A model generated the notes under the pieces. It had not been told where the DNA came from. It ran no database searches and was given only the letters and a program-made list of their open reading frames with translations. 64,000 nt of DNA from Escherichia phage vB_EcoM-ZQ3. The position numbers and the translations under genes are program-made. Location: the sequence record MW630116.1; one strand, 5' to 3'. This document shows positions 6,265 through 35,720 of the stretch, piece by piece. Every line of letters starts with the position of its first letter. Position 1 is the stretch's first letter.

Positions 6265-8976
6265 ATGAAAGAATTTTACTTAACGGTTGAACAGATTGGT
6301 GATTCAATTTTTGAACGTTACATCGATTCTAACGGCCGTGAACGTACTCGTGAAGTAGAATATAAACCATCACTGTTTGCTCATTGTCCAGAAAGTCAGG
6401 CTACGAAATATTTCGATATCTACGGTAAGCCGTGTACTCGTAAGTTGTTCGCCAATATGCGTGATGCCTCACAATGGATTAAACGCATGGAAGATATCGG
6501 ACTTGAAGCACTTGGCATGGACGATTTCAAATTGGCGTATTTGTCTGACACTTATAACTATGAAATCAAATACGACCATACAAAAATTCGTGTGGCTAAC
6601 TTCGACATCGAAGTAACATCTCCAGATGGGTTCCCTGAGCCGTCACAAGCAAAACATCCGATTGATGCTATCACCCATTATGACTCAATTGATGACAGGT
6701 TTTATGTATTTGACCTTTTGAATTCTCCATATGGTAATGTAGAAGAATGGTCTATTGAAATCGCTGCTAAGCTTCAAGAACAAGGCGGTGATGAAGTTCC
6801 ATCCGAAATTATCGACAAAATCATTTATATGCCGTTCGATAACGAAAAAGAATTGTTGATGGAATATCTCAACTTCTGGCAACAGAAAACTCCTGTCATT
6901 TTGACTGGATGGAACGTTGAGTCATTTGATATTCCATATGTGTATAACCGAATCAAGAATATTTTTGGCGAATCTACTGCGAAACGTTTATCACCACATC
7001 GCAAAACTCGTGTTAAAGTTATCGAAAACATGTATGGTTCTCGTGAAATCATTACATTGTTCGGTATCTCTGTTCTTGATTACATTGATCTTTACAAAAA
7101 ATTCTCTTTTACCAATCAACCGTCGTATTCTCTGGATTACATTTCAGAATTTGAATTGAACGTTGGTAAACTGAAATATGACGGCCCTATTTCTAAGCTT
7201 CGTGAAAGCAATCACCAACGATATATTTCTTATAACATTATCGACGTATATCGTGTATTGCAAATTGATGCTAAGCGTCAGTTCATCAACTTGAGTTTGG
7301 ACATGGGTTATTATGCTAAAATTCAGATTCAATCTGTGTTTAGCCCAATTAAAACATGGGATGCTATTATTTTTAATAGCCTTAAAGAGCAGAACAAGGT
7401 GATTCCACAAGGTCGTTCTCACCCGGTTCAACCTTATCCAGGCGCTTTTGTTAAGGAACCTATTCCAAATCGATACAAATATGTAATGAGTTTCGACCTT
7501 ACATCCCTGTATCCAAGTATTATTCGCCAAGTGAATATTAGCCCAGAAACAATAGCAGGAACGTTTAAAGTAGCTCCATTGCATGATTATATTAACGCTG
7601 TTGCTGAACGTCCTTCTGATGTGTACAGTTGTTCTCCTAACGGCATGATGTATTATAAAGACCGTGATGGTGTAGTTCCAACTGAAATCACTAAGGTCTT
7701 TAATCAACGTAAAGAACATAAAGGTTACATGCTTGCAGCTCAACGTAATGGTGAAATAATTAAAGAGGCATTGCATAATCCTAATCTTTCTGTTGACGAA
7801 CCATTAGATGTTGATTATCGTTTCGACTTCAGTGATGAGATTAAAGAAAAGATTAAAAAGTTGTCTGCTAAATCTCTTAATGAAATGTTGTTTAGAGCTC
7901 AACGTACTGAAGTTGCAGGTATGACTGCCCAAATTAACCGTAAATTGCTTATCAACTCACTTTATGGTGCACTTGGCAACGTTTGGTTCCGTTATTATGA
8001 TTTGCGTAATGCTACTGCAATCACAACATTTGGTCAAATGGCTTTACAGTGGATTGAACGTAAAGTTAATGAATATCTGAATGAAGTTTGTGGCACAGAA
8101 GGTGAAGCTTTCGTTCTTTATGGTGATACAGACTCTATTTACGTATCTGCTGATAAAATTATCGATAAGGTTGGTGAATCTAAATTCCGTGATACCAACC
8201 ATTGGGTAGACTTCTTAGATAAGTTTGCACGTGAACGTATGGAACCAGCTATTGATAGAGGTTTCCGTGAAATGTGTGAATACATGAACAATAAACAACA
8301 CTTAATGTTCATGGACCGAGAAGCTATCGCTGGGCCTCCACTCGGTTCTAAAGGTATTGGTGGATTCTGGACTGGTAAGAAACGTTATGCATTAAACGTG
8401 TGGGATATGGAAGGTACTCGTTACGCTGAGCCTAAACTCAAAATCATGGGTCTAGAGACTCAGAAATCTTCGACTCCTAAAGCAGTACAGAAAGCTCTTA
8501 AAGAATGTATTCGTCGTATGCTTCAAGAAGGTGAAGAATCATTACAAGAATATTTTAAAGAGTTTGAAAAAGAATTCCGTCAATTGAATTATATTAGCAT
8601 CGCGTCGGTATCTTCTGCGAATAACATTGCTAAATATGATGTAGGTGGATTCCCTGGTCCCAAATGCCCGTTCCATATTCGTGGAATTCTGACGTATAAC
8701 CGTGCTATCAAAGGTAATATCGATGCACCGCAAGTTGTAGAAGGTGAAAAAGTATATGTTCTGCCTTTACGTGAAGGAAACCCATTCGGTGATAAATGTA
8801 TCGCATGGCCTTCTGGTACTGAAATCACAGATTTAATTAAAGACGATGTACTTCACTGGATGGACTACACTGTTCTCCTTGAGAAGACATTTATTAAACC
8901 ACTTGAAGGATTCACATCAGCAGCGAAACTCGATTATGAGAAGAAAGCATCTCTGTTCGATATGTTCGATTTTTGA
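6265..8976 (+). CDS. 43: DNA polymerase gp43 (family B, with 3-prime to 5-prime exonuclease)
   Basis: 903 aa; exo motifs FDIE/YNIIDVY, pol motifs SLYPS, KILLNSLYG-like, YGDTDS; sequence matches my recollection of RB69 gp43. Confidence 0.97.
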   Translation: MKEFYLTVEQIGDSIFERYIDSNGRERTREVEYKPSLFAHCPESQATKYFDIYGKPCTRKLFANMRDASQWIKRMEDIGLEALGMDDFKLAYLSDTYNYEIKYDHTKIRVANFDIEVTSPDGFPEPSQAKHPIDAITHYDSIDDRFYVFDLLNSPYGNVEEWSIEIAAKLQEQGGDEVPSEIIDKIIYMPFDNEKELLMEYLNFWQQKTPVILTGWNVESFDIPYVYNRIKNIFGESTAKRLSPHRKTRVKVIENMYGSREIITLFGISVLDYIDLYKKFSFTNQPSYSLDYISEFELNVGKLKYDGPISKLRESNHQRYISYNIIDVYRVLQIDAKRQFINLSLDMGYYAKIQIQSVFSPIKTWDAIIFNSLKEQNKVIPQGRSHPVQPYPGAFVKEPIPNRYKYVMSFDLTSLYPSIIRQVNISPETIAGTFKVAPLHDYINAVAERPSDVYSCSPNGMMYYKDRDGVVPTEITKVFNQRKEHKGYMLAAQRNGEIIKEALHNPNLSVDEPLDVDYRFDFSDEIKEKIKKLSAKSLNEMLFRAQRTEVAGMTAQINRKLLINSLYGALGNVWFRYYDLRNATAITTFGQMALQWIERKVNEYLNEVCGTEGEAFVLYGDTDSIYVSADKIIDKVGESKFRDTNHWVDFLDKFARERMEPAIDRGFREMCEYMNNKQHLMFMDREAIAGPPLGSKGIGGFWTGKKRYALNVWDMEGTRYAEPKLKIMGLETQKSSTPKAVQKALKECIRRMLQEGEESLQEYFKEFEKEFRQLNYISIASVSSANNIAKYDVGGFPGPKCPFHIRGILTYNRAIKGNIDAPQVVEGEKVYVLPLREGNPFGDKCIAWPSGTEITDLIKDDVLHWMDYTVLLEKTFIKPLEGFTSAAKLDYEKKASLFDMFDF

Positions 8977-9016
8977 TATAATGTCATGGACGGTAAACTA
9001 ATTAAATGAGAGAAAT

Positions 9017-9652
9017 ATGAAAACTACTCCTATTACTATCGCTATTGACGCAATCATAAAACAAGCTTCTTCTTTGGCCGCTATGGCCAAAGTAATTAGT
9101 CAAAACCCTGCTCGTTATAATGCTATTCTAGAAACTCTTCGACGCCCAGGACTTAGTAATTATGAAAGCCGAGTAATTATTACAGGTGTTGGTAAGAATG
9201 CTAATATTGCAACTAAAGCTTCTGAGACATTTGCTTCACTCGGTATCCCGAGTATGTACTTGAACACTGGGCATTATTCTCACGGTGATGCAGGATTCAT
9301 TGCGCCTAATGATGTGTTGATTCATATTAGTCGTTCTGGTAAAACTGAAGAAATGATAGGCGTGGCTAAGCATCTTAAAATGATTCGTCCGAACGTCAAA
9401 CAGATTCTGTTGCATTGTAACCCGGACATTCCACAAGAATACGAAGCTCTTTTTGATTATACGTTCTGTACAGGCATCGCAGTAGAGGTTGATGAGAATT
9501 CTCTGGCTCCGACCATGTCCACTACATTGTTGTTAGCGCTTATCGATACGTTTGCTATCAACCTTTCGTCTGAACGTGGATTTACCTCTAATGACTTCCT
9601 TAAGTTCCACCCTGGCGGTGCACTAGGTGCCATGTTACGAGGCGAACAATGA
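9017..9652 (+). CDS. SIS-domain sugar-phosphate isomerase, KdsD/GutQ-like D-arabinose-5-phosphate isomerase (no CBS domains)
   Basis: VGKNANIATKASETFASLGIPS...HGD...ISRSGKT and LAPTMSTT...FHPGGALG closely parallel the KdsD SIS core, including conserved Lys and His. Confidence 0.8.
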   Translation: MKTTPITIAIDAIIKQASSLAAMAKVISQNPARYNAILETLRRPGLSNYESRVIITGVGKNANIATKASETFASLGIPSMYLNTGHYSHGDAGFIAPNDVLIHISRSGKTEEMIGVAKHLKMIRPNVKQILLHCNPDIPQEYEALFDYTFCTGIAVEVDENSLAPTMSTTLLLALIDTFAINLSSERGFTSNDFLKFHPGGALGAMLRGEQ

Positions 9653-9792
9653 AAGCAATAACAATAGGACTTTTACTATTGATGCTTGTCATGACTATCT
9701 ACTGGAGCTTAACGGCTCCAGTAATGATTCCGACTCTTATAATCGGATGGATTATGATTGGACTACAAGCAAAGTATGAATGCTTTAACTAG
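9649..9792 (+). CDS. possible 47-aa small membrane protein
   Basis: ATGA overlap with upstream stop; hydrophobic sequence; below the track size cutoff. Confidence 0.35.
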   Translation: MKAITIGLLLLMLVMTIYWSLTAPVMIPTLIIGWIMIGLQAKYECFN

Positions 9793-9833
9793 AATAGTGT
9801 ACAATACTCCTACTTACCAATGAGGACCACAAC

Positions 9834-11522
9834 ATGAAAAAAGCTGTTATTCTTGGTGCTGGACTGGCAACTCGTTTGTATCCAATAACGCATCATATTC
9901 CTAAGGTGCTTGTTAACTATAAACAAGACACTATTCTGAGCAATTTGTATACAATTTATTCTGACCTTGGCGCAGACGAAATTATTGTAGTAGTTCATTC
10001 AAAATTTGCTGAAACTGTTCGAGCTTATTGTGAGCAAGAAGGGTTCAATGTGACTATTCGTACAGTTGATGAAGCGTATGGTTCTGCTTATGCTCTTGCT
10101 AAATTACACAAAGATTTAAACGGCCATAATGTAATTGTTAACTGGTGTGATATTATTCCTGATTTTGGTTCGTGGTCTTGGAATGTTAACGCAATCTATG
10201 TTAAGGGTGACGAATGTCGATATAATTTCGACGGTGAAAATATCACTAATGTAGGTTCAACAGGTGGTAATGTTGTAGGAATTTATCAGTTCAAAGACTG
10301 GGAATTCTATATGGGTTCTACTGATGAGGAAATTCATGAATACTGCAAAGGACGTGATTTCGTAGAATTCCTTTACGGCAGCGCATTCAATAAATCAGAG
10401 CTTATGAATATCATCGACCTTGGTGATATGCCTAAACTTGAAAAAGCTCATGAAGTTCGTGAACTTAATCGTAGTTTTAATGCAGTTGAAATTGGCGAAG
10501 AAACGGTAACAAAGATTGCTTTAACAGAACAGGGCGTTGCACTTCAAAAAGATGAAGTCAATTGGTATAAGAAAGTTAAATCAGATTCAGTTCCACGGAT
10601 TGTAAGTTATCATCCTGGCGGCCACTTTATTATGGAACGTATTAAAGGTAAGCCGGCATTTGAATATATTAAATCCAAATCAAGTCTTGCTCGTCCACAA
10701 ATTGTTGATGCAATTTTAGATGCACTGAAATTCAGCACAGACACTTATTTTGTAAGTCCTGAAACTGTTCGTCGTGATTTCACTAAAGAGTTCTATACGA
10801 AAGTTATTGATCGTTGTGAAAGTATTCAACCATTGATTGATTCATTTGGTAAAATCACACATGTGAACTACACTAAGATTGGGCGTCTGAAGCCAATGCT
10901 GAAACAAGCTTTAGAACACCTTATTCGTTATCATAACCGTTCTCAGGGACAGTACTCTGTTATTCATGGTGACCCGAACTTCAGTAATACTATGATTACT
11001 GATAATGGTGAAGTCAAGTTTATCGACCCTCGTGGATATTTTGGTGAAACCAAGATTTATGGGCCAAAATTGTATGATGAAGCTAAAGTGCTTTATGCTG
11101 TTTCAGGTTATGATGAATTCAACGCTAATCCGACTTGGGGACAGTTTACTATTGATGAAACAACTTGTAATGTGACTATTAACATCAATCCGTTAGTTTA
11201 CAAATATGGAAAGATGAGTTCGTTTAACGAGTATCATCATTTGGCAGTGGCAATTATCTGGATTGCATTGGGTGGTTATTTCAAGAATAATCCACTTAAA
11301 GCGGTAGCCGCATATTATAAAGGTATGGAACTTCTGACTAAGCAATTACGTAACATGGGCCGTGTACTTCAGGACGGCTCTATTAGTTATGACGTAGCAG
11401 AACCTGTAACGGCTACTCTGATTACAAAAAATCCTGGTAAATGGGTACTAACTGATAAAGAAACTGGTGTTTCTTATCGTCCAATCGGTGGCGATATCAC
11501 TCATCAATGGGAACGAATCTAA
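9834..11522 (+). CDS. bifunctional sugar kinase / sugar-1-phosphate nucleotidyltransferase
   Basis: N-terminus AVILGAGLATRLYPIT (RmlA/GlmU-type NTase motif); C-terminal HGDPNFSNTMIT and KFIDPRG (APH/choline-kinase-like Brenner motif). Confidence 0.8.
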   Translation: MKKAVILGAGLATRLYPITHHIPKVLVNYKQDTILSNLYTIYSDLGADEIIVVVHSKFAETVRAYCEQEGFNVTIRTVDEAYGSAYALAKLHKDLNGHNVIVNWCDIIPDFGSWSWNVNAIYVKGDECRYNFDGENITNVGSTGGNVVGIYQFKDWEFYMGSTDEEIHEYCKGRDFVEFLYGSAFNKSELMNIIDLGDMPKLEKAHEVRELNRSFNAVEIGEETVTKIALTEQGVALQKDEVNWYKKVKSDSVPRIVSYHPGGHFIMERIKGKPAFEYIKSKSSLARPQIVDAILDALKFSTDTYFVSPETVRRDFTKEFYTKVIDRCESIQPLIDSFGKITHVNYTKIGRLKPMLKQALEHLIRYHNRSQGQYSVIHGDPNFSNTMITDNGEVKFIDPRGYFGETKIYGPKLYDEAKVLYAVSGYDEFNANPTWGQFTIDETTCNVTININPLVYKYGKMSSFNEYHHLAVAIIWIALGGYFKNNPLKAVAAYYKGMELLTKQLRNMGRVLQDGSISYDVAEPVTATLITKNPGKWVLTDKETGVSYRPIGGDITHQWERI

Positions 11523-11908
11523 TGCACCGTGTAGAAAACATGCTTAATCTTTGTTTTGATGTCGATGATTGTATAACAGAGTGGAATAACAATCGTGATT
11601 ACGTGAACTTCAAACCAGACGTCGAAATGGTGTCTGCCATTAATGCCCTGTATGATGCAGGGCATACCATAACGCTTTACACTGCTCGCGGTATGAAGTC
11701 AGTCGGTCCTGGTCGTATAGCAATTGACATTCTCCCAAGTCTGATTCAGAACTTGGCAAACATTGGATTGAAGTACCATAATTTGCTAACACATAAACCA
11801 GTATATGATTGGATTATCGACGATAAAGCTATGCGTCCTGACGAATTCAAAGCTCTTATGAATAAAGGCGAATTCGAAACATTTAAATCATATAAACCGA
11901 ATCTATAA
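11522..11908 (+). CDS. small HAD-superfamily phosphatase
   Basis: TAATG overlap; candidate HAD motifs FDVDD (I), LYTARG (II), K in THKPVYD (III), IIDDK (IV). Confidence 0.65.
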   Translation: MHRVENMLNLCFDVDDCITEWNNNRDYVNFKPDVEMVSAINALYDAGHTITLYTARGMKSVGPGRIAIDILPSLIQNLANIGLKYHNLLTHKPVYDWIIDDKAMRPDEFKALMNKGEFETFKSYKPNL

Positions 11909-11964
11909 TAATTTAAGTAAGACCTGCAAAAACCATCGCGTCAATTAACGTGAGATGCAAAAAA

Positions 11965-13125
11965 ATGAATACCTTTAAAATCGGAACGAATTTTGATTTA
12001 GCTCTTCTTGATAAAATCGTAGAGCTCAATAAAACTTATCCTAATAGCTTGATAAATGAAGTATACGGCTCTACAAGAGAAATGGCTTTTGTAGCAGCCA
12101 GACCTGATTTTAGGCTTCCTGACGTTGACAAAAAGATGTTAGAAGATTATGTTAAACGTTGTAACGAATTAGGTATTTGCTTTAACTATACACTCAACAC
12201 GATAAATCCTGGTTCAAAAAGAGAACTAGTTGAGTGGAAGAAGAAAGCTATTCAGGATTATGTTCAGTATCTTTGGTCAATAGGCGTATGGCGTATTACT
12301 ATCGCTAACCCTGTTGTTATGGAAATTGTTCGTGAAGTCAATAAAGACATTGAGATTGAAGTTTCAACAATTCTACATGTTGATGCTGTAACTCAAATCA
12401 AATACTTGCATGACCAGTATAATATCAAAAAGGTCTGCTGTGGAATTCATAAGAACCGTTCAGTTTCTTTCCTGAAGCGTGCAGCAGAGTTTTGCAATAA
12501 GAACAATATAATATTTGAAGTTCTCGTAAATGAATTCTGTTCTAATGCCGGTAAAGGGTATACAACACATTGTAGCTATCGTGACTCTTGCTATATTTTC
12601 CATAGCACAGATGTTACAGTAGATGATGCTAAATCCTTAAATGGATATCCAATGCAACACTGCATTAAAGCTCGTGATACAGACCCATTTAACTGGTTGA
12701 GAACTCGTTTTGTTCGTCCTCAAGATTTGAAACTTTATAATGATATTGGTATCACTCAATTCAAAGTTTCAGGACGTACAGGTAGCACAGACTACATTTT
12801 GAAAGTTCTTGAAGCTTATGCTTCTGAAAAATTTGAAGGTAATTTGTTGGAATTGTGGAAGCCTTTAGAGACCATTTTCACTCTTGAAAATGAGACCGAG
12901 TTTTCACATACGGTAAATATTGAAACCTCTTTGTTAGATGGCTTTTTAGAAAAAAGGTGGTTCAAACATCCAGATTTCGATTGTGCTAATGAAATCTGCG
13001 GGACGACGTGTACATATTGTGAAAGATATTATAAACGTCAGTTATCTAAAAATGGGTTATCAGAAAACTCTATATCTATTATTGATATAACTAACTCTGA
13101 CGACGCTTTGAGGTACCCAGAATGA
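11965..13125 (+). CDS. Cys-rich enzyme of uncertain family (possibly peptidase-U32-like Fe-S TIM-barrel protein)
   Basis: 386 aa from ATG 11965; cysteine clusters EFCSNAGKGYTTHCSYRDSC and C-terminal CANEICGTTCTYC; QFKVSGR resembles the U32 KIEGR-type motif; assignment tentative. Confidence 0.75.
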   Translation: MNTFKIGTNFDLALLDKIVELNKTYPNSLINEVYGSTREMAFVAARPDFRLPDVDKKMLEDYVKRCNELGICFNYTLNTINPGSKRELVEWKKKAIQDYVQYLWSIGVWRITIANPVVMEIVREVNKDIEIEVSTILHVDAVTQIKYLHDQYNIKKVCCGIHKNRSVSFLKRAAEFCNKNNIIFEVLVNEFCSNAGKGYTTHCSYRDSCYIFHSTDVTVDDAKSLNGYPMQHCIKARDTDPFNWLRTRFVRPQDLKLYNDIGITQFKVSGRTGSTDYILKVLEAYASEKFEGNLLELWKPLETIFTLENETEFSHTVNIETSLLDGFLEKRWFKHPDFDCANEICGTTCTYCERYYKRQLSKNGLSENSISIIDITNSDDALRYPE

Positions 13126-13283
13126 TTTCTAGAAAAACTTTTAACCACCAACTTAATGAAGAGATTTTGACTACGAAAATTAACAGCAACGAACAAATTC
13201 TTAAAAAGGCCCTGATGGGCCTGTTTGAAACTAAAGCGGCTAAAGTGATTAAAGAAACCTGTTCAACTAGAATACTATGCTGA
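13122..13283 (+). CDS. possible 53-aa small protein
   Basis: ATGA overlap with upstream stop; no homology recognised. Confidence 0.3.
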   Translation: MISRKTFNHQLNEEILTTKINSNEQILKKALMGLFETKAAKVIKETCSTRILC

Positions 13284-13359
13284 TGCATTTCTTCATAGTG
13301 TTCTTGGAAGTATCGATGCTGAAGCTTTACGTTATATCAACATTGTCAAGAAATTCAAA

Positions 13360-13385
13360 TAAGCTTTACGAATTGAGTATATAAT
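13360..13385 (+). promoter_or_regulatory. putative MotA-dependent middle promoter
   Basis: taaGCTTTA box, 11-nt gap, TATAAT 13380-13385; aagctttacg also at 13322. Confidence 0.45.
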
Positions 13386-13404
13386 AAATTGTATTGAGGT
13401 AAAC

Positions 13405-14121
13405 ATGGGAAAACATAACACAATGAAATATATCAAAGCCGCAGATTTTCAAACCGCATTTAAAGCAGTCAATCGTGAAATTTTAGAAAACCCGGAATTC
13501 GTAACTGATTCTCGTATTGGACGTTGTAATGAAATTGGGTCTATGACAGTAGTTGTTGATACCCCTTCATCATTCAAAATGACCGACCCACGTATTAATC
13601 GCATCTCTTATGAATATGCTGAAGATTTCTGGAAGTTTATGATTTCTGGTGGTACCAACGCAGAAGAAGCGTTTAAGGCATATCCTAATGTCGCTAAATT
13701 TATTTCTAAACCAAAATCAGATGTTTTGCCTGCAAACTTCAACACTTTCTATGGTCCACGAATTGCGGCCCAGTTACCAGCTCTTCTAAAAGAACTTAAA
13801 GAGAAGCCTAACTCTCGAAGAGTTGTGTTCCAAATTCTAGAAAGTTCTGATCAGGCTTTGCTTGATTCAGACGAAACGCTTGAATATCCATGTACTGACT
13901 CAGTGACTTATTATATTCGTGATGGTAAGCTTTATACCCACTGTCATATGCGTTCTCAGAACTGTGCTGTTGTTATGCAGTTGGATTTTTATCTCCAAGG
14001 AAAATTACTTCATTATATCGCTAACGAATGCGGTGTAGAAGTTGGTGATTATACTCATACCATGGTAAGTGCCCATGTGTTTGAACGTGATTTTGATTAT
14101 GTTAAAGGATTCCTTGACTAA
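13405..14121 (+). CDS. thymidylate-synthase-fold pyrimidine-modifying enzyme, divergent dCMP hydroxymethylase (gene 42)-like
   Basis: 238 aa; NSRRVVFQI, YPCTDSVTYYIRDGKL and SAHVFERDF parallel the T4 gp42/TS motifs SRRGIMIY, FMCTNTVQYLIRDKKI, SLHVYSRHF. Confidence 0.8.
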   Translation: MGKHNTMKYIKAADFQTAFKAVNREILENPEFVTDSRIGRCNEIGSMTVVVDTPSSFKMTDPRINRISYEYAEDFWKFMISGGTNAEEAFKAYPNVAKFISKPKSDVLPANFNTFYGPRIAAQLPALLKELKEKPNSRRVVFQILESSDQALLDSDETLEYPCTDSVTYYIRDGKLYTHCHMRSQNCAVVMQLDFYLQGKLLHYIANECGVEVGDYTHTMVSAHVFERDFDYVKGFLD

Positions 14122-15020
14122 TGGCTATTTTCCGCGTACCTATCTTGAGTATGCGGTCTTATGAAACTGGACAGTATGCTATCCTTAAGGATGGCAACTT
14201 CCAACTTCATTTGCACCGTGCTAATCCGGGTGATGTGATTACATATCCACGTAATGCATCTGATATTAAAGAATGCGAACGTCTTTTTCCAGAATTTAAG
14301 TTTGTTCCATTATGGTATAAAGATAACGCGTATAACACTCGTAAATATTTCTGGTCTGAAAATGAATTTGTGGTTGATTCATTAATTGCTTATTATGATT
14401 GTGATTTTCTAATCACAGATATCACTGGATATGACGGTGCTTTTGATGTGGAATTCAATTTCAATATCACTGCAGACCCTAATAAACCACGTTTTTATAT
14501 TGACGAATTCTTAAAAACCGATATGTTGTCGGTTAATCGTTCACTTCAAACTACTGTGTTGAATAAACGTCAAAAGGAAGTGCTGGTTAACGCTGGTGCC
14601 GATGGTAATAAGATTATCGTAACCCAGAAAGTTATACGTCCTTCCATCATGCAGCGTCTTGTAGGTGATTTGGCTCCTATTCATCTAGATGGTATTTTTC
14701 ATCCATTTCGAATTAGTGACCCGTGCTATCGTTTTGAACAAGTGGTTGAATGTGCAATTCAATTAGGCCAACCGCTTTATATAACCGATCCAAATAATAG
14801 CTTCGACAGAAATAAGTATCCTGAAGAAGCGCTGATTCGAATTTTTAAACCAACTAAAACCGAGTACTATCAAATTCTTAAAGGACGTCCAAAGATTCAA
14901 TATTTCGAAAATCCTGAAGAAGTATTCCATCCAGGTCTTGGTGAGTTCATCTACTTTAATGCTTTAATTTCTTCGCCGTATAATATACCTAAATACGAAG
15001 ATGTCGTAATCGAGGAATAA
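14121..15020 (+). CDS. hypothetical protein (299 aa), function unknown
   Basis: TAATG overlap with the TS-like gene; no recognised motifs. Confidence 0.75.
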   Translation: MAIFRVPILSMRSYETGQYAILKDGNFQLHLHRANPGDVITYPRNASDIKECERLFPEFKFVPLWYKDNAYNTRKYFWSENEFVVDSLIAYYDCDFLITDITGYDGAFDVEFNFNITADPNKPRFYIDEFLKTDMLSVNRSLQTTVLNKRQKEVLVNAGADGNKIIVTQKVIRPSIMQRLVGDLAPIHLDGIFHPFRISDPCYRFEQVVECAIQLGQPLYITDPNNSFDRNKYPEEALIRIFKPTKTEYYQILKGRPKIQYFENPEEVFHPGLGEFIYFNALISSPYNIPKYEDVVIEE

Positions 15021-15021
15021 A

Positions 15022-15570
15022 ATGGCTAAAATTATTTTAGTAGATGGCCCGGATAATGCCGGTAAAACAACTTTCATTAATGACATAATGGAAATTAGTG
15101 AAAGATATGTAAAGATTGATTTCCCTAAACGAACAGTTGACGGACGTTTCGATGTTAAGTCTCGAAATGAAGTTGGCTGTTTCGAAACGATGTTGAATTA
15201 TTTAGACCCTACTAAGATTTATCTGTTAGATCGTGGATATATTAGTAACTGGGTTTACGGACGTATTCGACAAGATGCGGACTCGGTTCTTGACGTTTAT
15301 GAACAGGATTATGTTCGTCTTTGCCAAAACCATGATGTGTTCACAATTATTTTAACACGTAACGAAATGACTGAAAGTTTTGAAGACGACCTTATTACTT
15401 TGTCTTCATTCGGTTTTAATACAGTAATTTCATATTTTGAAGAGTTTGCAATCCATAACGAAATCCAAACGTATCAATTACTTAATCATGATGGTGCTAA
15501 CAAAGTTATAGGATTTAATGCAAGCGAACGTAATAATTTGATTACAGAAATTATCAAATGGGCTCGTTAA
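15022..15570 (+). CDS. P-loop kinase (nucleotide/nucleoside kinase-like)
   Basis: Walker A GPDNAGKTT near N-terminus; LDRGYISNWVYG resembles dNK/TMK-type motif. Confidence 0.8.
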   Translation: MAKIILVDGPDNAGKTTFINDIMEISERYVKIDFPKRTVDGRFDVKSRNEVGCFETMLNYLDPTKIYLLDRGYISNWVYGRIRQDADSVLDVYEQDYVRLCQNHDVFTIILTRNEMTESFEDDLITLSSFGFNTVISYFEEFAIHNEIQTYQLLNHDGANKVIGFNASERNNLITEIIKWAR

Positions 15571-15590
15571 GAGCCTGTTTAAAGTTTTAA
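15561..15590 (+). terminator. possible weak terminator hairpin spanning the kinase stop codon
   Basis: ggctc-gttaa-gagcc followed by T-rich tract. Confidence 0.35.
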
Positions 15591-15616
15591 ATGCTGTATA
15601 ACCCTTAGTATATAAT
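15589..15616 (+). promoter_or_regulatory. possible middle promoter upstream of uvsX
   Basis: aaaTGCTgtA box-like, TATAAT at 15611-15616. Confidence 0.35.
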
Positions 15617-15669
15617 CGTCTTATCTTTTAAACATGAGTAAAATATAATGATGCCTATGGAAAAATACA

Positions 15670-16842
15670 ATGTCTGATTTAAAATCTCGTCTGATTAAAG
15701 CTTCTACTTCTAAAATGACTGCAGACTTGACTAAGTCTAAGTTGTTTAATAATCGCGATGAAGTCCCTACTCGTATTCCGATGTTGAATATTGCATTAGG
15801 TGGTGCACTGAATGCTGGGTTGCAATCAGGCTTAACTATTTTTGCTGCTCCTTCTAAACACTTTAAAACGTTGTTTGGACTGACCATGGTTGCAGCATAT
15901 ATGAAGAAATATAAAGATGCAATTTGTTTGTTCTATGATTCAGAATTTGGTGCTTCAGAATCTTATTTTCGTTCGATGGGTGTTGATTTAGACCGTGTAG
16001 TTCATACTCCGATTCAATCTGTCGAACAACTTAAAGTTGATATGACTAATCAGCTTGACGCGATTGAACGCGGTGATAAAGTTATTATCTTTATCGATTC
16101 AATTGGTAATACTGCATCTAAGAAAGAAACCGAAGATGCGTTGAACGAGAAAGTTGTAGGTGATATGTCTCGTGCTAAGGCACTTAAATCTCTGTTCCGC
16201 ATTGTGACTCCTTATCTGACTATTAAAGATATTCCGTGTGTTGCAATCAACCATACAGCAATGGAAATTGGCGGACTATATCCTAAAGAGATTATGGGTG
16301 GTGGTACAGGTATTCTTTACTCTGCTAACACTGTATTCTTTATCTCTAAACGTCAGGTTAAAGAAGGTACAGAATTGACCGGTTATGACTTCACGTTGAA
16401 AGCAGAAAAATCTCGTACAGTTAAAGAGAAATCTACTTTCCCAATCACAGTCAATTTCGATGGCGGTATCGACCCATTCAGTGGCTTGTTAGAAATGGCA
16501 ACTGAAATTGGTTTTGTAGTTAAGCCTAAAGCCGGGTGGTATGCTCGAGAATTCCTTGACGAAGAAACAGGCGAAATGATTCGTGAAGAGAAATCATGGC
16601 GTGCTAAAGCTACTGATTGTGTAGAATTCTGGGGACCGTTGTTTAAACACAAACCTTTCCGAGATGCAATTGAAACTAAATATAAACTAGGTGCTATCTC
16701 TTCTATTAAAGAAGTCGATGACGCTGTTAACGACCTTATTAATTGCAAAGCAACAACTAAAGTTCCGGTTAAAACTTCTGATGCTCCGTCTGCAGCAGAT
16801 ATAGAAAACGACCTTGACGAAATGGAAGATTTCGATGAATAA
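15670..16842 (+). CDS. uvsX: RecA-like recombinase UvsX
   Basis: 390 aa; RecA-fold ATPase; T4 UvsX size and position. Confidence 0.93.
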   Translation: MSDLKSRLIKASTSKMTADLTKSKLFNNRDEVPTRIPMLNIALGGALNAGLQSGLTIFAAPSKHFKTLFGLTMVAAYMKKYKDAICLFYDSEFGASESYFRSMGVDLDRVVHTPIQSVEQLKVDMTNQLDAIERGDKVIIFIDSIGNTASKKETEDALNEKVVGDMSRAKALKSLFRIVTPYLTIKDIPCVAINHTAMEIGGLYPKEIMGGGTGILYSANTVFFISKRQVKEGTELTGYDFTLKAEKSRTVKEKSTFPITVNFDGGIDPFSGLLEMATEIGFVVKPKAGWYAREFLDEETGEMIREEKSWRAKATDCVEFWGPLFKHKPFRDAIETKYKLGAISSIKEVDDAVNDLINCKATTKVPVKTSDAPSAADIENDLDEMEDFDE

Positions 16843-34619: not shown

Positions 34620-35720
34620 ATGAAAGTTATGTTTATCCCATCTCGTGCAGTCCCATTTAATCCTGACCGTGTACAAGGTGGTCTTGAAGCAGTACATTTA
34701 AATGTGTTGAAATATCTTGTGTCCATCGGTGCTGATATTGATTATATCGGTTTTGATAATGACACATTTGGTGATTGGAAGGTTAATCATCATCCTGTTG
34801 GTCATCTGACTAAATTCAGTCTAGGTATGAGTTATACTATGGCTCGTAAGATTGTTGAACTAGCCGGCATCCATGAATACGATTTTGTTGTTACTATGGA
34901 AACGACTAAACTAACCGTTCAGGCAATTAAAGACGCAGGTCTCTCTAAAGTTCATAAGAATTTTATGGCAACACCATTTGAACCGGTATCTCGTGGCATT
35001 GTTCAAATTTGGGACCAGACTATTCAAATTCATAAGAATGGTGGTAAGAGTTATGCTCCTACTAAAGCCTTCCGTGAATTTGAACGCAAATATTGTTATA
35101 TGACTTCAGGTCTGACTGACAAAATTGATTACGATTATTGGCGAGCAAATCCGTTGTTTGAAGCCGAAGATTATCCGGTTATTTGTTTGAATGAGAAACC
35201 TGAAGTTCTTCCGGCGACTGATCTGATTATTAGTGCACAACGTTATGACACTAAAATGCGTCGTACTGATGTTGCTCTTGAAGCGATTAAAGCACTAGGC
35301 GAAAATGGTGTAGGATACTGTCCTAGTAAATGGGCACCACCGGCTAAGTATCCTGTTATTATTGATGCTCCACACAGTGAAATCATGGAACGTCTTAAAA
35401 CAGCTAAAGCACTTATCAATACGTGTCCTGACACGGGTACGGTAGAGAATAGTTCTATTGAAGCCATCTCTAAAGGTGTCCCTGTGATTCAGTTAGTTTT
35501 TAAGGATTATCCGCACGCGACATTCGAATATGACCCAGATACTGTGCGTGTAGAAATTGATTCCTCTACTCCTAAGAAAGAAGTAGTTGCGCTTTACACA
35601 AAAGCGGTATTAGAATTCACTGACACATACGAAGCTCGAGTTAAACGTGCTGAAGCAGTATGGAAGAAGTATAACCGAGATGCGGTTGTTGCGATGTGGG
35701 ATAAAATCTTCACAGCGTAA
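34620..35720 (+). CDS. putative GT-B-fold glycosyltransferase (candidate DNA sugar transferase)
   Basis: N-terminal GGLEAVHLNVLKYL; C-terminal GTVENSSIEAISKGVPVI resembles the GT4-type EX7E/donor-binding segment. Confidence 0.7.
   Translation: MKVMFIPSRAVPFNPDRVQGGLEAVHLNVLKYLVSIGADIDYIGFDNDTFGDWKVNHHPVGHLTKFSLGMSYTMARKIVELAGIHEYDFVVTMETTKLTVQAIKDAGLSKVHKNFMATPFEPVSRGIVQIWDQTIQIHKNGGKSYAPTKAFREFERKYCYMTSGLTDKIDYDYWRANPLFEAEDYPVICLNEKPEVLPATDLIISAQRYDTKMRRTDVALEAIKALGENGVGYCPSKWAPPAKYPVIIDAPHSEIMERLKTAKALINTCPDTGTVENSSIEAISKGVPVIQLVFKDYPHATFEYDPDTVRVEIDSSTPKKEVVALYTKAVLEFTDTYEARVKRAEAVWKKYNRDAVVAMWDKIFTA

What the first reader, a model, noticed from the sequence alone, without database searches (positions are those of the whole stretch)
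9017..11908. Predicted three-enzyme route from ribulose-5-P to an NDP-D-arabinose-type donor
ORF 9017-9652 retains the KdsD/GutQ SIS core, including the active-site Lys and the HPGG His, which points to ribulose-5-P to arabinose-5-P isomerisation. ORF 9834-11522 fuses an APH-like kinase to an RmlA-like sugar-1-P nucleotidyltransferase. ORF 11522-11908 is a minimal HAD phosphatase. This mirrors the logic of the ADP-heptose pathway (isomerase, kinase, phosphatase, nucleotidyltransferase) but with a pentose, and it is encoded by a virus.
Basis: inference. Interest (0 to 1): 0.8.

Follow-up and report, generated by a model that had tools for sequence, protein, structure and literature searches.

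The report
Known phage UDP-arabinose pathway for DNA

Summary
The window is an RB69-like Mosigvirus (T-even-like coliphage). ORF 9017-9652 is an arabinose-5-phosphate isomerase made of a SIS domain alone, with all five KdsD active-site residues I recall. ORF 9834-11522 is a fusion of a sugar-1-phosphate nucleotidyltransferase (N-terminal) and an APH/choline-kinase-like kinase (C-terminal). ORF 11522-11908 is a minimal HAD phosphatase.

The three proteins are 211/211, 559/562 and 128/128 identical to those of phage HY126. For HY126, AfhE (kinase plus UDP-arabinose pyrophosphorylase) and AfhF (Mg-dependent phosphatase, PDB 9IQW) were reported biochemically (He 2026, as summarised in Lee 2026, PMC13326640). 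Thomas 2018 had already proposed the genes.

The route is Ru5P -> Ara5P -> Ara-1,5-P2 -> Araf-1-P -> UDP-Araf. It feeds glycosyltransferases that arabinosylate 5-hydroxycytosine in phage DNA.

The new lead lies next door. The U32 gene (11965-13125) has 10 invariant cysteines. It is paired with a chorismate mutase in 51 related phages. In unrelated phages it sits beside homologues of the window's glycosyltransferase (14121-15020, = RB69 gp46:47, which Lee 2026 proposes as the initial arabinosyltransferase), with no ThyA homologue nearby. It may be an O2-independent, prephenate-dependent pyrimidine 5-hydroxylase.

The parts
9017..9652 (+). Arabinose-5-phosphate isomerase made of a SIS domain alone (= RB69 gp55, HY126 XAN60481): Ru5P <-> Ara5P
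   Evidence: Pfam SIS and NCBIfam KpsF/KdsD hits. Closest PDB relatives are 3ETN, 5UQI and 2XHZ. All five KdsD residues are conserved. 211/211 identical to HY126. PHROG 5670 'arabinose 5-phosphate isomerase'.
9834..10448 (+). N-terminal sugar-1-phosphate nucleotidyltransferase domain of the AfhE-type fusion protein: Araf-1-P + UTP -> UDP-Araf
10449..11522 (+). C-terminal APH/choline-kinase-like kinase domain of the same protein: Ara5P + ATP -> Ara-1,5-bisphosphate
11522..11908 (+). Minimal (capless) HAD phosphatase, AfhF: Ara-1,5-P2 -> Araf-1-P
   Evidence: Identical over the aligned 129 residues to PDB 9IQW (E 8e-88); next best is 1XPJ. NCBIfam TIGR01689 capsule phosphatase 4e-13. 128/128 identical to HY126. 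Mg-dependent phosphatase activity reported for HY126 AfhF.
11965..13125 (+). U32-family Fe-S protein (= RB69 gp50). Part of the same gene cluster but not needed for the sugar donor. Proposed here as an O2-independent pyrimidine 5-hydroxylase.
   Evidence: Pfam Peptidase_U32 6.6e-11. Model pLDDT 89; top Foldseek hit is the U32 structure 5D88. 10 invariant Cys. Chorismate mutase partner in 51 phages. Absent from the JS98 and DLP1 loci, which keep the sugar genes.
13405..14121 (+). Thymidylate-synthase homologue = flavin/O2-dependent 5-hydroxy-dCMP synthase. It makes the acceptor base.
   Evidence: Pfam Thymidylat_synt. Near-identical to PDB 9IQC/9IR2/9IQU, E 8e-161. 233/238 identical to HY126. 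Function shown for RB69 gp48 and the HY126 enzyme.
14121..15020 (+). Glycosyltransferase = RB69 gp46:47, which Lee 2026 proposes as the initial arabinosyltransferase on 5-hydroxycytosine; consumer of UDP-Araf
   Evidence: No Pfam, NCBIfam or PDB sequence hit. PHROG 3891. 296/299 identical to HY126. Role proposed in Lee 2026 from fold and synteny.
15022..15570 (+). P-loop, thymidylate-kinase-like nucleotide kinase (= RB69 gp45); role in the pathway not established
   Evidence: Weak dTMP-kinase P-loop hits. PHROG 761 thymidylate kinase. Listed as 'nucleotide kinase' in Lee 2026 Table 1.
34620..35720 (+). Second arabinosyltransferase (= RB69 gp3/ORF003c), proposed to add the second arabinose
   Evidence: 363/366 identical to RB69p003. 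Role proposed in Thomas 2018 and Lee 2026.

Best explanation
The three genes are the phage's own supply line for UDP-D-arabinofuranose.

- The SIS-only isomerase pulls ribulose-5-P from the pentose-phosphate pathway into arabinose-5-P.
- The C-terminal APH-like kinase domain of the 562-aa protein phosphorylates the anomeric hydroxyl, giving arabinofuranose-1,5-bisphosphate.
- The minimal HAD phosphatase removes the 5-phosphate.
- The N-terminal nucleotidyltransferase domain condenses Araf-1-P with UTP.

The donor is used by the arabinosyltransferases at 14121-15020 and 34620-35720. They decorate 5-hydroxycytosine, made as 5-hydroxy-dCMP by the ThyA homologue at 13405-14121, so the phage DNA carries mono- and di-arabinosylated cytosines that block restriction enzymes.

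Reported elsewhere for 99.5-100% identical proteins (as summarised in Lee 2026): the kinase, phosphatase and pyrophosphorylase activities, and the UDP nucleotide. Lee 2026 also showed that Acinetobacter phage DLP3 glycosyltransferases need UDP-Araf to extend RB69 DNA.

Inferred from sequence, fold and residues: the isomerase step.

My own inference: phosphorylating C1 while the 5-phosphate is still on keeps the sugar in the furanose ring, so no pyranose-furanose mutase is needed.
For: - Identity to the characterised HY126 proteins: 211/211, 559/562 and 128/128. The HAD is identical over the aligned 129 residues to PDB 9IQW.
- Literature: Lee 2026 sections 25-27 and their summary of He 2026; Thomas 2018.
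- Own tests: KdsD residues conserved. NTase and kinase catalytic residues invariant in 35 homologues. Both folds confirmed on a pLDDT-93 model.
- Gene fusions: proteins of about 900 aa carry HAD, SIS, NTase and kinase in one chain, and 761-aa proteins carry SIS, NTase and kinase. This ties the four activities together independently.
- Context: the genes are co-linear and translationally coupled with the 5-hydroxy-dCMP synthase and glycosyltransferase genes in Escherichia, Enterobacter and Acinetobacter phages; the Shewanella and JS98 clusters are the same but lack the isomerase.
Against: - I could not read the primary enzymology (He 2026, Mahler 2025). The biochemical claims reach me second-hand through Lee 2026.
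- Lee 2026 Table 1 labels the steps in a different order (phosphatase on Ara5P, kinase on free arabinose) from its own text.
- I found no statement that the isomerase itself was assayed.
- The isomerase is missing from the JS98 and Thanatos-2 clusters, so it is dispensable where the host KdsD/GutQ supplies Ara5P.
- Nothing was measured for this particular phage.
Confidence: 0.93

Rival explanations
1. Same enzymes, different order (a salvage-type route). The HAD phosphatase first converts Ara5P to free arabinose, the kinase then phosphorylates C1 of free arabinose, and the NTase activates it.
For: Lee 2026 Table 1 annotates RB69 gp51 as 'dephosphorylates Araf5p to Ara' and the kinase domain as 'phosphorylates Ara to Araf1p'. 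The best-known APH-fold anomeric sugar kinases act on free sugars (own knowledge: AmgK).
Against: The text of the same paper, citing enzymology on HY126, states that AfhE is an arabinose-5-phosphate kinase and that AfhF acts on the bisphosphate. Free arabinose would equilibrate mainly to the pyranose, whereas Lee 2026's in vitro extension of RB69 DNA used UDP-Araf as substrate. The last point about equilibration is inference.
Confidence: 0.04
2. The genes make a different activated sugar or use a different nucleotide (for example GDP-, CDP- or dTDP-pentose, or a xylose/ribose derivative), not UDP-Araf.
For: The NTase fold alone does not fix nucleotide or sugar: top structural neighbours use CTP, dTTP, UTP and GTP. 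The Shewanella phage Thanatos paper discusses xylose.
Against: Arabinose was identified chemically in RB69 DNA. UDP-D-arabinose pyrophosphorylase activity is reported for a 99.5% identical protein. The adjacent isomerase has the full arabinose-5-P isomerase residue set.
Confidence: 0.02
3. The genes act on the host envelope (Kdo, capsule or LPS metabolism, as the KpsF and capsule-phosphatase names suggest) rather than on phage DNA.
For: Database names: KpsF/GutQ family, 'capsule biosynthesis phosphatase' TIGR01689; 9IQW was deposited as 'Capsule biosynthesis protein'.
Against: No Kdo-8-P synthase or CMP-Kdo synthetase was found among the cluster's seven larger ORFs, which sit between DNA polymerase and UvsX with the 5-hydroxy-dCMP synthase and DNA glycosyltransferase. 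All curated NCBIfam cut-offs for those families are missed. The DNA modification accounts for the product.
Confidence: 0.01

Closest known systems
Afh pathway of Escherichia phage HY126 (AfhE, AfhF) and its RB69 (gp55, gp52:53, gp51) and Acinetobacter phage DLP3 (gp83, gp82, gp81) counterparts
   Same: Same genes in the same order, with the same neighbours. Proteins are 100%, 99.5% and 100% identical to HY126, and 99.0% (isomerase), 99.2% (HAD) and 95.6% over the 344-residue tblastn piece of the fusion protein, which is split by a frameshift in the RB69 record.
   Different: Nothing of substance. This is another Mosigvirus isolate; the fusion protein carries 3 substitutions relative to HY126 (N96D, G392C, T448S as window/HY126 residues).
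Nucleotide-heptose pathways (GmhA, HldE or HddA, GmhB, HldE or HddC)
   Different: A pentose, and a furanose product. The kinase is APH/choline-kinase-like, not PfkB (HldE) or GHMP (HddA) (own knowledge of those families). The HAD is a 128-aa capless form that misses the HAD-IIIA cut-off (14.6 vs 44.6 bits). The product goes onto DNA, not LPS or capsule.
AmgK-MurU (anomeric MurNAc kinase plus MurNAc-1-P uridylyltransferase) and LicA-LicC (choline kinase plus phosphocholine cytidylyltransferase)
   Different: Here the two are fused in one chain in NTase-kinase order. The kinase substrate is a sugar 5-phosphate, so an extra phosphatase step is needed.
KdsD/GutQ/KpsF arabinose-5-phosphate isomerases
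   Same: SIS fold and the K59/H88/E111/E152/H193 set.
   Different: No tandem CBS domains, like the single-domain enzymes 3ETN and 5UQI. It feeds a nucleotide-sugar route, not Kdo synthesis.

Membership tests
KdsD/GutQ/KpsF arabinose-5-phosphate isomerase | SIS domain | tested here: met
   Pfam SIS 41.2 bits against a cut-off of 25. Best PDB relatives are 3ETN, 5UQI and 2XHZ.
KdsD/GutQ/KpsF arabinose-5-phosphate isomerase | Active-site residues K59, H88, E111, E152, H193 (E. coli KdsD numbering; their importance is from my own knowledge of the KdsD literature) | tested here: met
   All five are invariant in alignment A3 of the window protein, E. coli KdsD and two other phage proteins.
KdsD/GutQ/KpsF arabinose-5-phosphate isomerase | C-terminal tandem CBS domains and the full-length curated score | tested here: not met
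   The protein ends 13 residues after HPGG. TIGR00393 scores 112.7 against a cut-off of 203.7, and KdsD 107 against 505. Single-domain isomerases of this kind are known (3ETN, 5UQI).
KdsD/GutQ/KpsF arabinose-5-phosphate isomerase | Ru5P <-> Ara5P activity | not testable with these tools
   Predicted in Lee 2026. I found no statement that it was assayed.
Sugar-1-phosphate nucleotidyltransferase (RmlA/MurU/LicC type) | Fold | tested here: met
Sugar-1-phosphate nucleotidyltransferase (RmlA/MurU/LicC type) | N-terminal G-x-G-x-R ... P-K nucleotide-binding signature | tested here: met
   LGAGLATRLYPITHHIPK; G10, R14, P23 and K24 are invariant in 35 homologues. Pfam NTP_transferase 38.9 bits against 21.2.
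Sugar-1-phosphate nucleotidyltransferase (RmlA/MurU/LicC type) | UDP-Araf pyrophosphorylase activity | not testable with these tools
   Reported for HY126 AfhE, 559/562 identical.
APH/choline-kinase-like (protein-kinase-like) small-molecule kinase | Fold | tested here: met
APH/choline-kinase-like (protein-kinase-like) small-molecule kinase | Catalytic residues: ATP-binding Lys and Glu, HxDxxxxN loop, metal-binding Asp | tested here: met
   K227, E241, H378-G-D380, N385 and D398 are invariant in 35 homologues.
APH/choline-kinase-like (protein-kinase-like) small-molecule kinase | Pfam APH gathering score | tested here: not met
   18.7 bits against 23.2. It is a divergent member by sequence.
HAD-superfamily phosphatase | Motifs I-IV (DxD nucleophile/acid pair, T/S, K, DD) | tested here: met
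   FDVDDC, TLYTARG, THKP and IIDDKA are read from the sequence and aligned with 1XPJ (DLDGT, ISTARN). Identical over the aligned 129 residues to the solved 9IQW.
HAD-superfamily phosphatase | Membership of GmhB-type HAD-IIIA or of the EcbF/BcbF capsule phosphatase family by curated score | tested here: not met
   TIGR01662 scores 14.6 against 44.6, and TIGR01689 scores 49.3 against 162. It works like GmhB but is not a member of that family.
ADP/GDP-heptose pathway (as a system) | Homologous kinase (PfkB or GHMP) | tested here: not met
   The kinase domain is APH-like. The resemblance is one of pathway logic, not descent.
Peptidase U32 / prephenate-dependent hydroxylases (UbiU, UbiV, TrhP, RlhA), for the neighbouring gene 11965-13125 | U32 fold and motif Glu plus Cys ligands for a 4Fe-4S cluster | tested here: inconclusive
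   Pfam U32 42.4 bits against 22.4. Top Foldseek hit is 5D88. The Glu and two of the three motif Cys align with E. coli paralogues, but the C176 equivalent is Gly. The subfamily has 10 invariant Cys, including CX4CX3CX2C. Only 16-22% identical to the E. coli enzymes.
Peptidase U32 / prephenate-dependent hydroxylases (UbiU, UbiV, TrhP, RlhA), for the neighbouring gene 11965-13125 | Dependence on prephenate | not testable with these tools
   Indirect only: an AroQ chorismate mutase gene directly follows the U32 gene in 51 phage records. It is absent or unrecognisable in this window.

The most novel reading that the evidence does not exclude
The cluster holds a second, unrecognised enzyme for making the acceptor base. 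On this reading the U32 protein next to the HAD gene (11965-13125) is an Fe-S, prephenate-dependent, O2-independent 5-hydroxylase of a pyrimidine deoxynucleotide (or of DNA). It would let the phage hydroxylate and arabinosylate its cytosines in the anoxic gut, where the flavin/O2-dependent ThyA homologue cannot work. In some phages of anaerobes it may be the only hydroxylase.

The evidence is contextual:
- A chorismate mutase partner in 51 phages; in Thanatos-2 the pair sits at a different place in the cluster.
- 79.5% identity between E. coli and Shewanella phages, higher than DNA polymerase.
- 10 invariant cysteines.
- In the JS98 (E. coli Dhakavirus) and DLP1 (Acinetobacter) loci examined, the U32 gene is absent, and no Acinetobacter phage appears in the top-10 organism list or the 60 sampled U32 hits.
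- Adjacency to homologues of the window's glycosyltransferase (14121-15020) and to dNMP-metabolism genes in unrelated phage contigs, with no ThyA homologue within 7 kb.

I could not check whether He 2026 or Mahler 2025 already address this. Lee 2026 only labels the protein 'sugar or heterocycle reductase'.
Probability: 0.4. Interest if true: 0.7.

Novelty: already known. Interest (0 to 1): 0.2.

Why it matters
The pathway matters: a virus builds a nucleotide sugar that its host lacks (Lee 2026 notes NDP-arabinose is not known in Enterobacteriaceae) so that it can hypermodify its DNA and evade restriction enzymes. But this has been proposed since 2018 and was reported enzymatically in 2026 for nearly identical proteins, so the finding adds another genome, not new biology.

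The part worth pursuing is the neighbouring U32 gene. If it is an oxygen-independent cytosine or uracil 5-hydroxylase, it would:
- extend prephenate-dependent hydroxylation from quinones and RNA to DNA precursors;
- explain how gut phages keep their DNA modified without oxygen;
- give a marker for finding new 5-hydroxypyrimidine DNA modifications in phages of anaerobes.

Tried and rejected
- I tried to read the primary papers (He 2026 Nat Chem Biol; Mahler 2025 Cell Host Microbe). Neither is held. Searching for AfhE, AfhF and HY126 found only Lee 2026.
- The promoter and terminator scan of 8800-15800 was uninformative: 22 promoter-like sites against 26 expected, and 4 terminator-like sites against 3.4.
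- I tested whether the small ORF after the U32 gene in Mosigvirus (RB69 ORF049c; frameshifted here) is a diverged chorismate mutase. A profile of seven phage chorismate mutases scores it -0.4 bits, and Pfam and NCBIfam find nothing. Rejected.
- I considered that the U32 protein is part of UDP-arabinose synthesis, as one GenBank annotation says. Rejected: the JS98 and DLP1 loci have the sugar genes without it, and its homologues sit in nucleotide-metabolism modules of phages, some with no arabinose genes.
- A strict rule that U32 occurs only in phages of facultative anaerobes holds for presence, but not for absence: E. coli Dhakaviruses lack it.
- Sequence searches of the PDB found nothing for the U32 protein or the glycosyltransferase at 14121-15020.
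- Literature searches for U32 together with phage, arabinose, chorismate mutase or prephenate found no paper linking them.
Full report
**What the window is.** The ORFs around the finding are T-even replication genes: RegA, a 903-aa DNA polymerase, UvsX. Megablast of 9000-15600 finds 151 phage genomes that cover at least 80% of it, and 154 records match at 95-99% identity. Escherichia phage HY126 is the best (98.5%), and RB69 relatives follow. The polymerase is 100% identical to that of RB69 and HY126. The window is therefore an RB69-like Mosigvirus.

**Observation.** The three ORFs are real.

ORF 9017-9652 (211 aa) hits Pfam SIS above threshold and the KpsF/GutQ and KdsD models. It lacks the CBS pair, like the single-domain isomerases 3ETN and 5UQI that are its best PDB relatives.

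ORF 9834-11522 (562 aa) is a fusion, but in the order NTase then kinase.
- NTase part: GxGxR..PK signature and Pfam NTP_transferase on residues 3-99.
- Kinase part: weak APH, fructosamine-kinase and RIO hits on residues 238-410.
- In an alignment of 35 homologues down to 27% identity, the invariant residues are the expected catalytic ones: G10, R14, P23, K24; K227, E241, H378-G-D380, N385, D398.

ORF 11522-11908 has readable HAD motifs. It is identical over the aligned 129 residues to the solved chain 9IQW, and the chain's first Met lines up with the ATG at 11522, which overlaps the upstream stop (TAATG). The mechanical ORF begins five codons earlier, at 11507.

**It is already known.**
- Thomas et al. 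2018 (PMC6024577) found arabinose in RB69 DNA. They corrected the frameshift that split this fusion gene in the RB69 record, noticed a Butyrivibrio protein that joins it to a SIS domain, and proposed ORF055c and ORF53_52c as UDP-arabinose genes.
- Lee et al. 2026 (PMC13326640) showed that the base is 5-hydroxycytosine, not hydroxymethylcytosine. It is made as 5-hydroxy-dCMP by the ThyA homologue.
- They write out the route Ru5P -> Araf5P -> Araf-1,5-P2 -> Araf-1-P -> UDP-Araf for RB69 gp55, gp52:53 and gp51. They cite He et al. 2026 for the enzymology of HY126 AfhE (arabinose-5-phosphate kinase plus UDP-arabinose pyrophosphorylase) and AfhF (Mg-dependent phosphatase).
- The window's proteins are 211/211, 559/562 and 128/128 identical to those of HY126.
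- The neighbouring ThyA homologue is near-identical to PDB 9IQC, 9IR2 and 9IQU.
- I could not open He 2026 or Mahler 2025, so the biochemical statements are second-hand.

**Mechanism, and what is shown or inferred.**
- Reported for near-identical proteins: the kinase, phosphatase and pyrophosphorylase activities and the UDP nucleotide. Lee 2026 also found that two DLP3 glycosyltransferases together add a third arabinose to RB69 DNA with UDP-Araf as substrate.
- Inferred: the isomerase step (residues and fold only).
- My own inference: phosphorylating C1 while O5 is still blocked by phosphate fixes the furanose ring. That would explain why this heptose-like order is used and why no mutase is present.
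- Lee 2026 Table 1 labels the steps in a salvage order (phosphatase first), which conflicts with its own text. I keep this as a minor rival.

**Independent support gathered here.**
- A protein search with the fusion enzyme finds about 900-aa proteins that carry HAD, SIS, NTase and kinase in one chain. One cluster has 52 member sequences and one protein comes from a eukaryotic transcriptome. It also finds a 761-aa SIS-NTase-kinase protein.
- One of these four-domain genes lies on a contig with SNF2 helicase, Ulp1-type peptidase and asparagine synthase genes. That looks more like a giant virus or a eukaryote than a bacterium.
- Across phages, the fusion gene and the HAD gene always travel together with the ThyA homologue and the glycosyltransferase. 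The isomerase is missing from the JS98 and Shewanella Thanatos-2 clusters. It is therefore an accessory booster where the host's own KdsD can supply Ara5P.

**Comparison with known systems.**
Only the SIS and HAD superfamilies and the HddC-like NTase are shared.
- The kinase is APH-like, not PfkB or GHMP.
- The HAD misses the curated cut-offs of both HAD-IIIA and the capsule phosphatase family.
- At the level of folds, the closest tandem is AmgK-MurU or LicA-LicC (the pairing of those enzymes is from my own knowledge).

**Beyond the finding: the U32 gene.** Between the HAD gene and the ThyA homologue lies a U32-family gene (11965-13125), which Lee 2026 lists only as 'sugar or heterocycle reductase'.

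U32 proteins UbiU/UbiV, TrhP and RlhA carry out O2-independent hydroxylations that need prephenate and Fe-S clusters. RlhA makes 5-hydroxycytidine in 23S rRNA (PMC10990095, PMC5727448, PMC6599085). The phage ThyA homologue, by contrast, uses flavin and O2.

Five observations link the phage U32 protein to base hydroxylation:
1. In 51 phage records from Klebsiella, Serratia, Yersinia, Enterobacter, Edwardsiella, Erwinia, Pectobacterium, Providencia, Morganella, E. coli EcS1 and Shewanella phages, a bona fide AroQ chorismate mutase lies next to the U32 gene, between it and the ThyA homologue where one follows (CM_2 2e-10 and 8e-8). In Thanatos-2 the pair sits at a different place in the cluster.
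2. Against Thanatos-2, the U32 protein is the most conserved protein of the cluster: 79.5%, compared with 71% over the aligned part of DNA polymerase, 68% for UvsX and 54% for the fusion enzyme. All 221 phage hits are at least 80% identical.
3. It is found in phages of Enterobacterales and Shewanella. No Acinetobacter phage appears in the top-10 organism list or the 60 sampled rows, although 57 Acinetobacter phages carry the sugar genes, and the DLP1 locus lacks it. E. coli Dhakaviruses also lack it.
4. The subfamily has 10 invariant cysteines, including a C-terminal CX4CX3CX2C. It keeps the U32 motif Glu and two of the three motif Cys, but the C176 equivalent is Gly. Its model matches the U32 structure 5D88.
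5. Metagenomic homologues (48-58% identical) sit in replication and deoxynucleotide modules of unrelated phage-like contigs, next to thymidylate-kinase-like, UDG-like, dCMP deaminase, dUTPase and DnaE-type polymerase genes.
   - In three contigs a homologue of this window's glycosyltransferase (14121-15020) lies close upstream of the U32 gene: directly upstream in two (L016, L018), and in L015 separated from it by SIS and NTase-kinase homologues.
   - One of them (L016) also carries a TAGT-type glycosyltransferase and a UDP-galactopyranose mutase.
   - No ThyA homologue lies within 7 kb in any of them.

In this window the chorismate mutase is absent. The ORF in its place (13122-13362) is unrelated to chorismate mutase, and is frameshifted here and in HY126 relative to the intact 79-aa RB69 ORF049c. 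This phage would therefore depend on host prephenate.

I put the probability of the hydroxylase reading at about 0.4. It is contextual and untested, and I cannot exclude that the two papers I could not read already address it.

**Verdict.** The pathway is published and was characterised in a phage whose three proteins are 99.5-100% identical. Interest is low for the finding as stated. The neighbouring U32 gene is the item worth a follow-up.

Noticed in passing
window 11965-13125 (alternative GTG start at 11950): U32-family Fe-S protein inside the arabinosylation cluster. It is paired with a chorismate mutase in 51 related phages, is more conserved than DNA polymerase against Thanatos-2, has 10 invariant Cys, and has homologues beside the same glycosyltransferase family in unrelated phages with no ThyA homologue nearby. 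It is a candidate O2-independent, prephenate-dependent pyrimidine 5-hydroxylase.
   Followed up: partly
window 13122-13362: The small gene overlapping the U32 stop (ATGA) is an intact 79-aa ORF in RB69 (ORF049c). It is frameshifted here by one extra A (53-aa ORF, with the rest in another frame) and by two extra bases in HY126 (40 aa). It occupies the slot held by chorismate mutase in other genera but shows no similarity to it. It is either decaying or affected by sequencing error.
   Followed up: partly
window 9649-9792: Conserved 47-aa, very hydrophobic ORF (MKAITIGLLLLMLVMTIYW...) overlapping the isomerase stop codon. It is identical in HY126, where it is annotated, and belongs to PHROG 3610 (unknown function). 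RB69 annotates the region as similar to the T4 42-imm intercistronic region.
   Followed up: no
proteins P0200, P0202, P0206, P0209, P0212, P0214 and P0210; locus L020 5545-8283: Single polypeptides of about 900 aa carry HAD, SIS, NTase and kinase domains in that order; P0210 (761 aa) carries SIS, NTase and kinase. One comes from a eukaryotic transcriptome, and one lies on a contig with SNF2, Ulp1-peptidase and asparagine synthase genes. This suggests the same pentose-activation route exists in giant viruses or protists.
   Followed up: partly
locus L015 3939-9804 (80-kb metagenomic contig): A phage-like contig carries, in a row, a homologue of the window's glycosyltransferase (14121-15020), a SIS isomerase, an NTase-kinase fusion (28% identical), the U32 protein (54% identical), a DAHP-synthase/KdsA-family protein and an epimerase. 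Two UDG-like genes lie nearby, and no ThyA homologue lies within 7 kb.
   Followed up: partly
loci L004 (JS98) and L006 (Thanatos-2): These phages keep the NTase-kinase, HAD, ThyA-homologue, glycosyltransferase and kinase genes but have no SIS isomerase in the cluster. The isomerase is therefore an accessory gene, presumably replaced by the host's KdsD or GutQ.
   Followed up: partly
window 34620-35720: The second arabinosyltransferase (99% identical to RB69 ORF003c/gp3) lies about 20 kb away from the cluster, between the topoisomerase large subunit and rIIA.1/rIIA.
   Followed up: yes
window 15022-15570: A P-loop, thymidylate-kinase-like protein conserved at the end of the cluster. A similar small kinase accompanies the glycosyltransferase-U32 pair in metagenomic contigs (L016, L018). 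Its substrate is unknown; RB69's gp1-type dNMP kinase lies elsewhere in the genome.
   Followed up: no
literature: PMC13326640, Table 1 versus section 27: The table labels the HAD as dephosphorylating Araf5P to free arabinose and the kinase as acting on free arabinose. The text gives the order as kinase on Ara5P, then phosphatase on the bisphosphate. The text cites enzymology, so the table looks like a leftover from an earlier version.
   Followed up: partly
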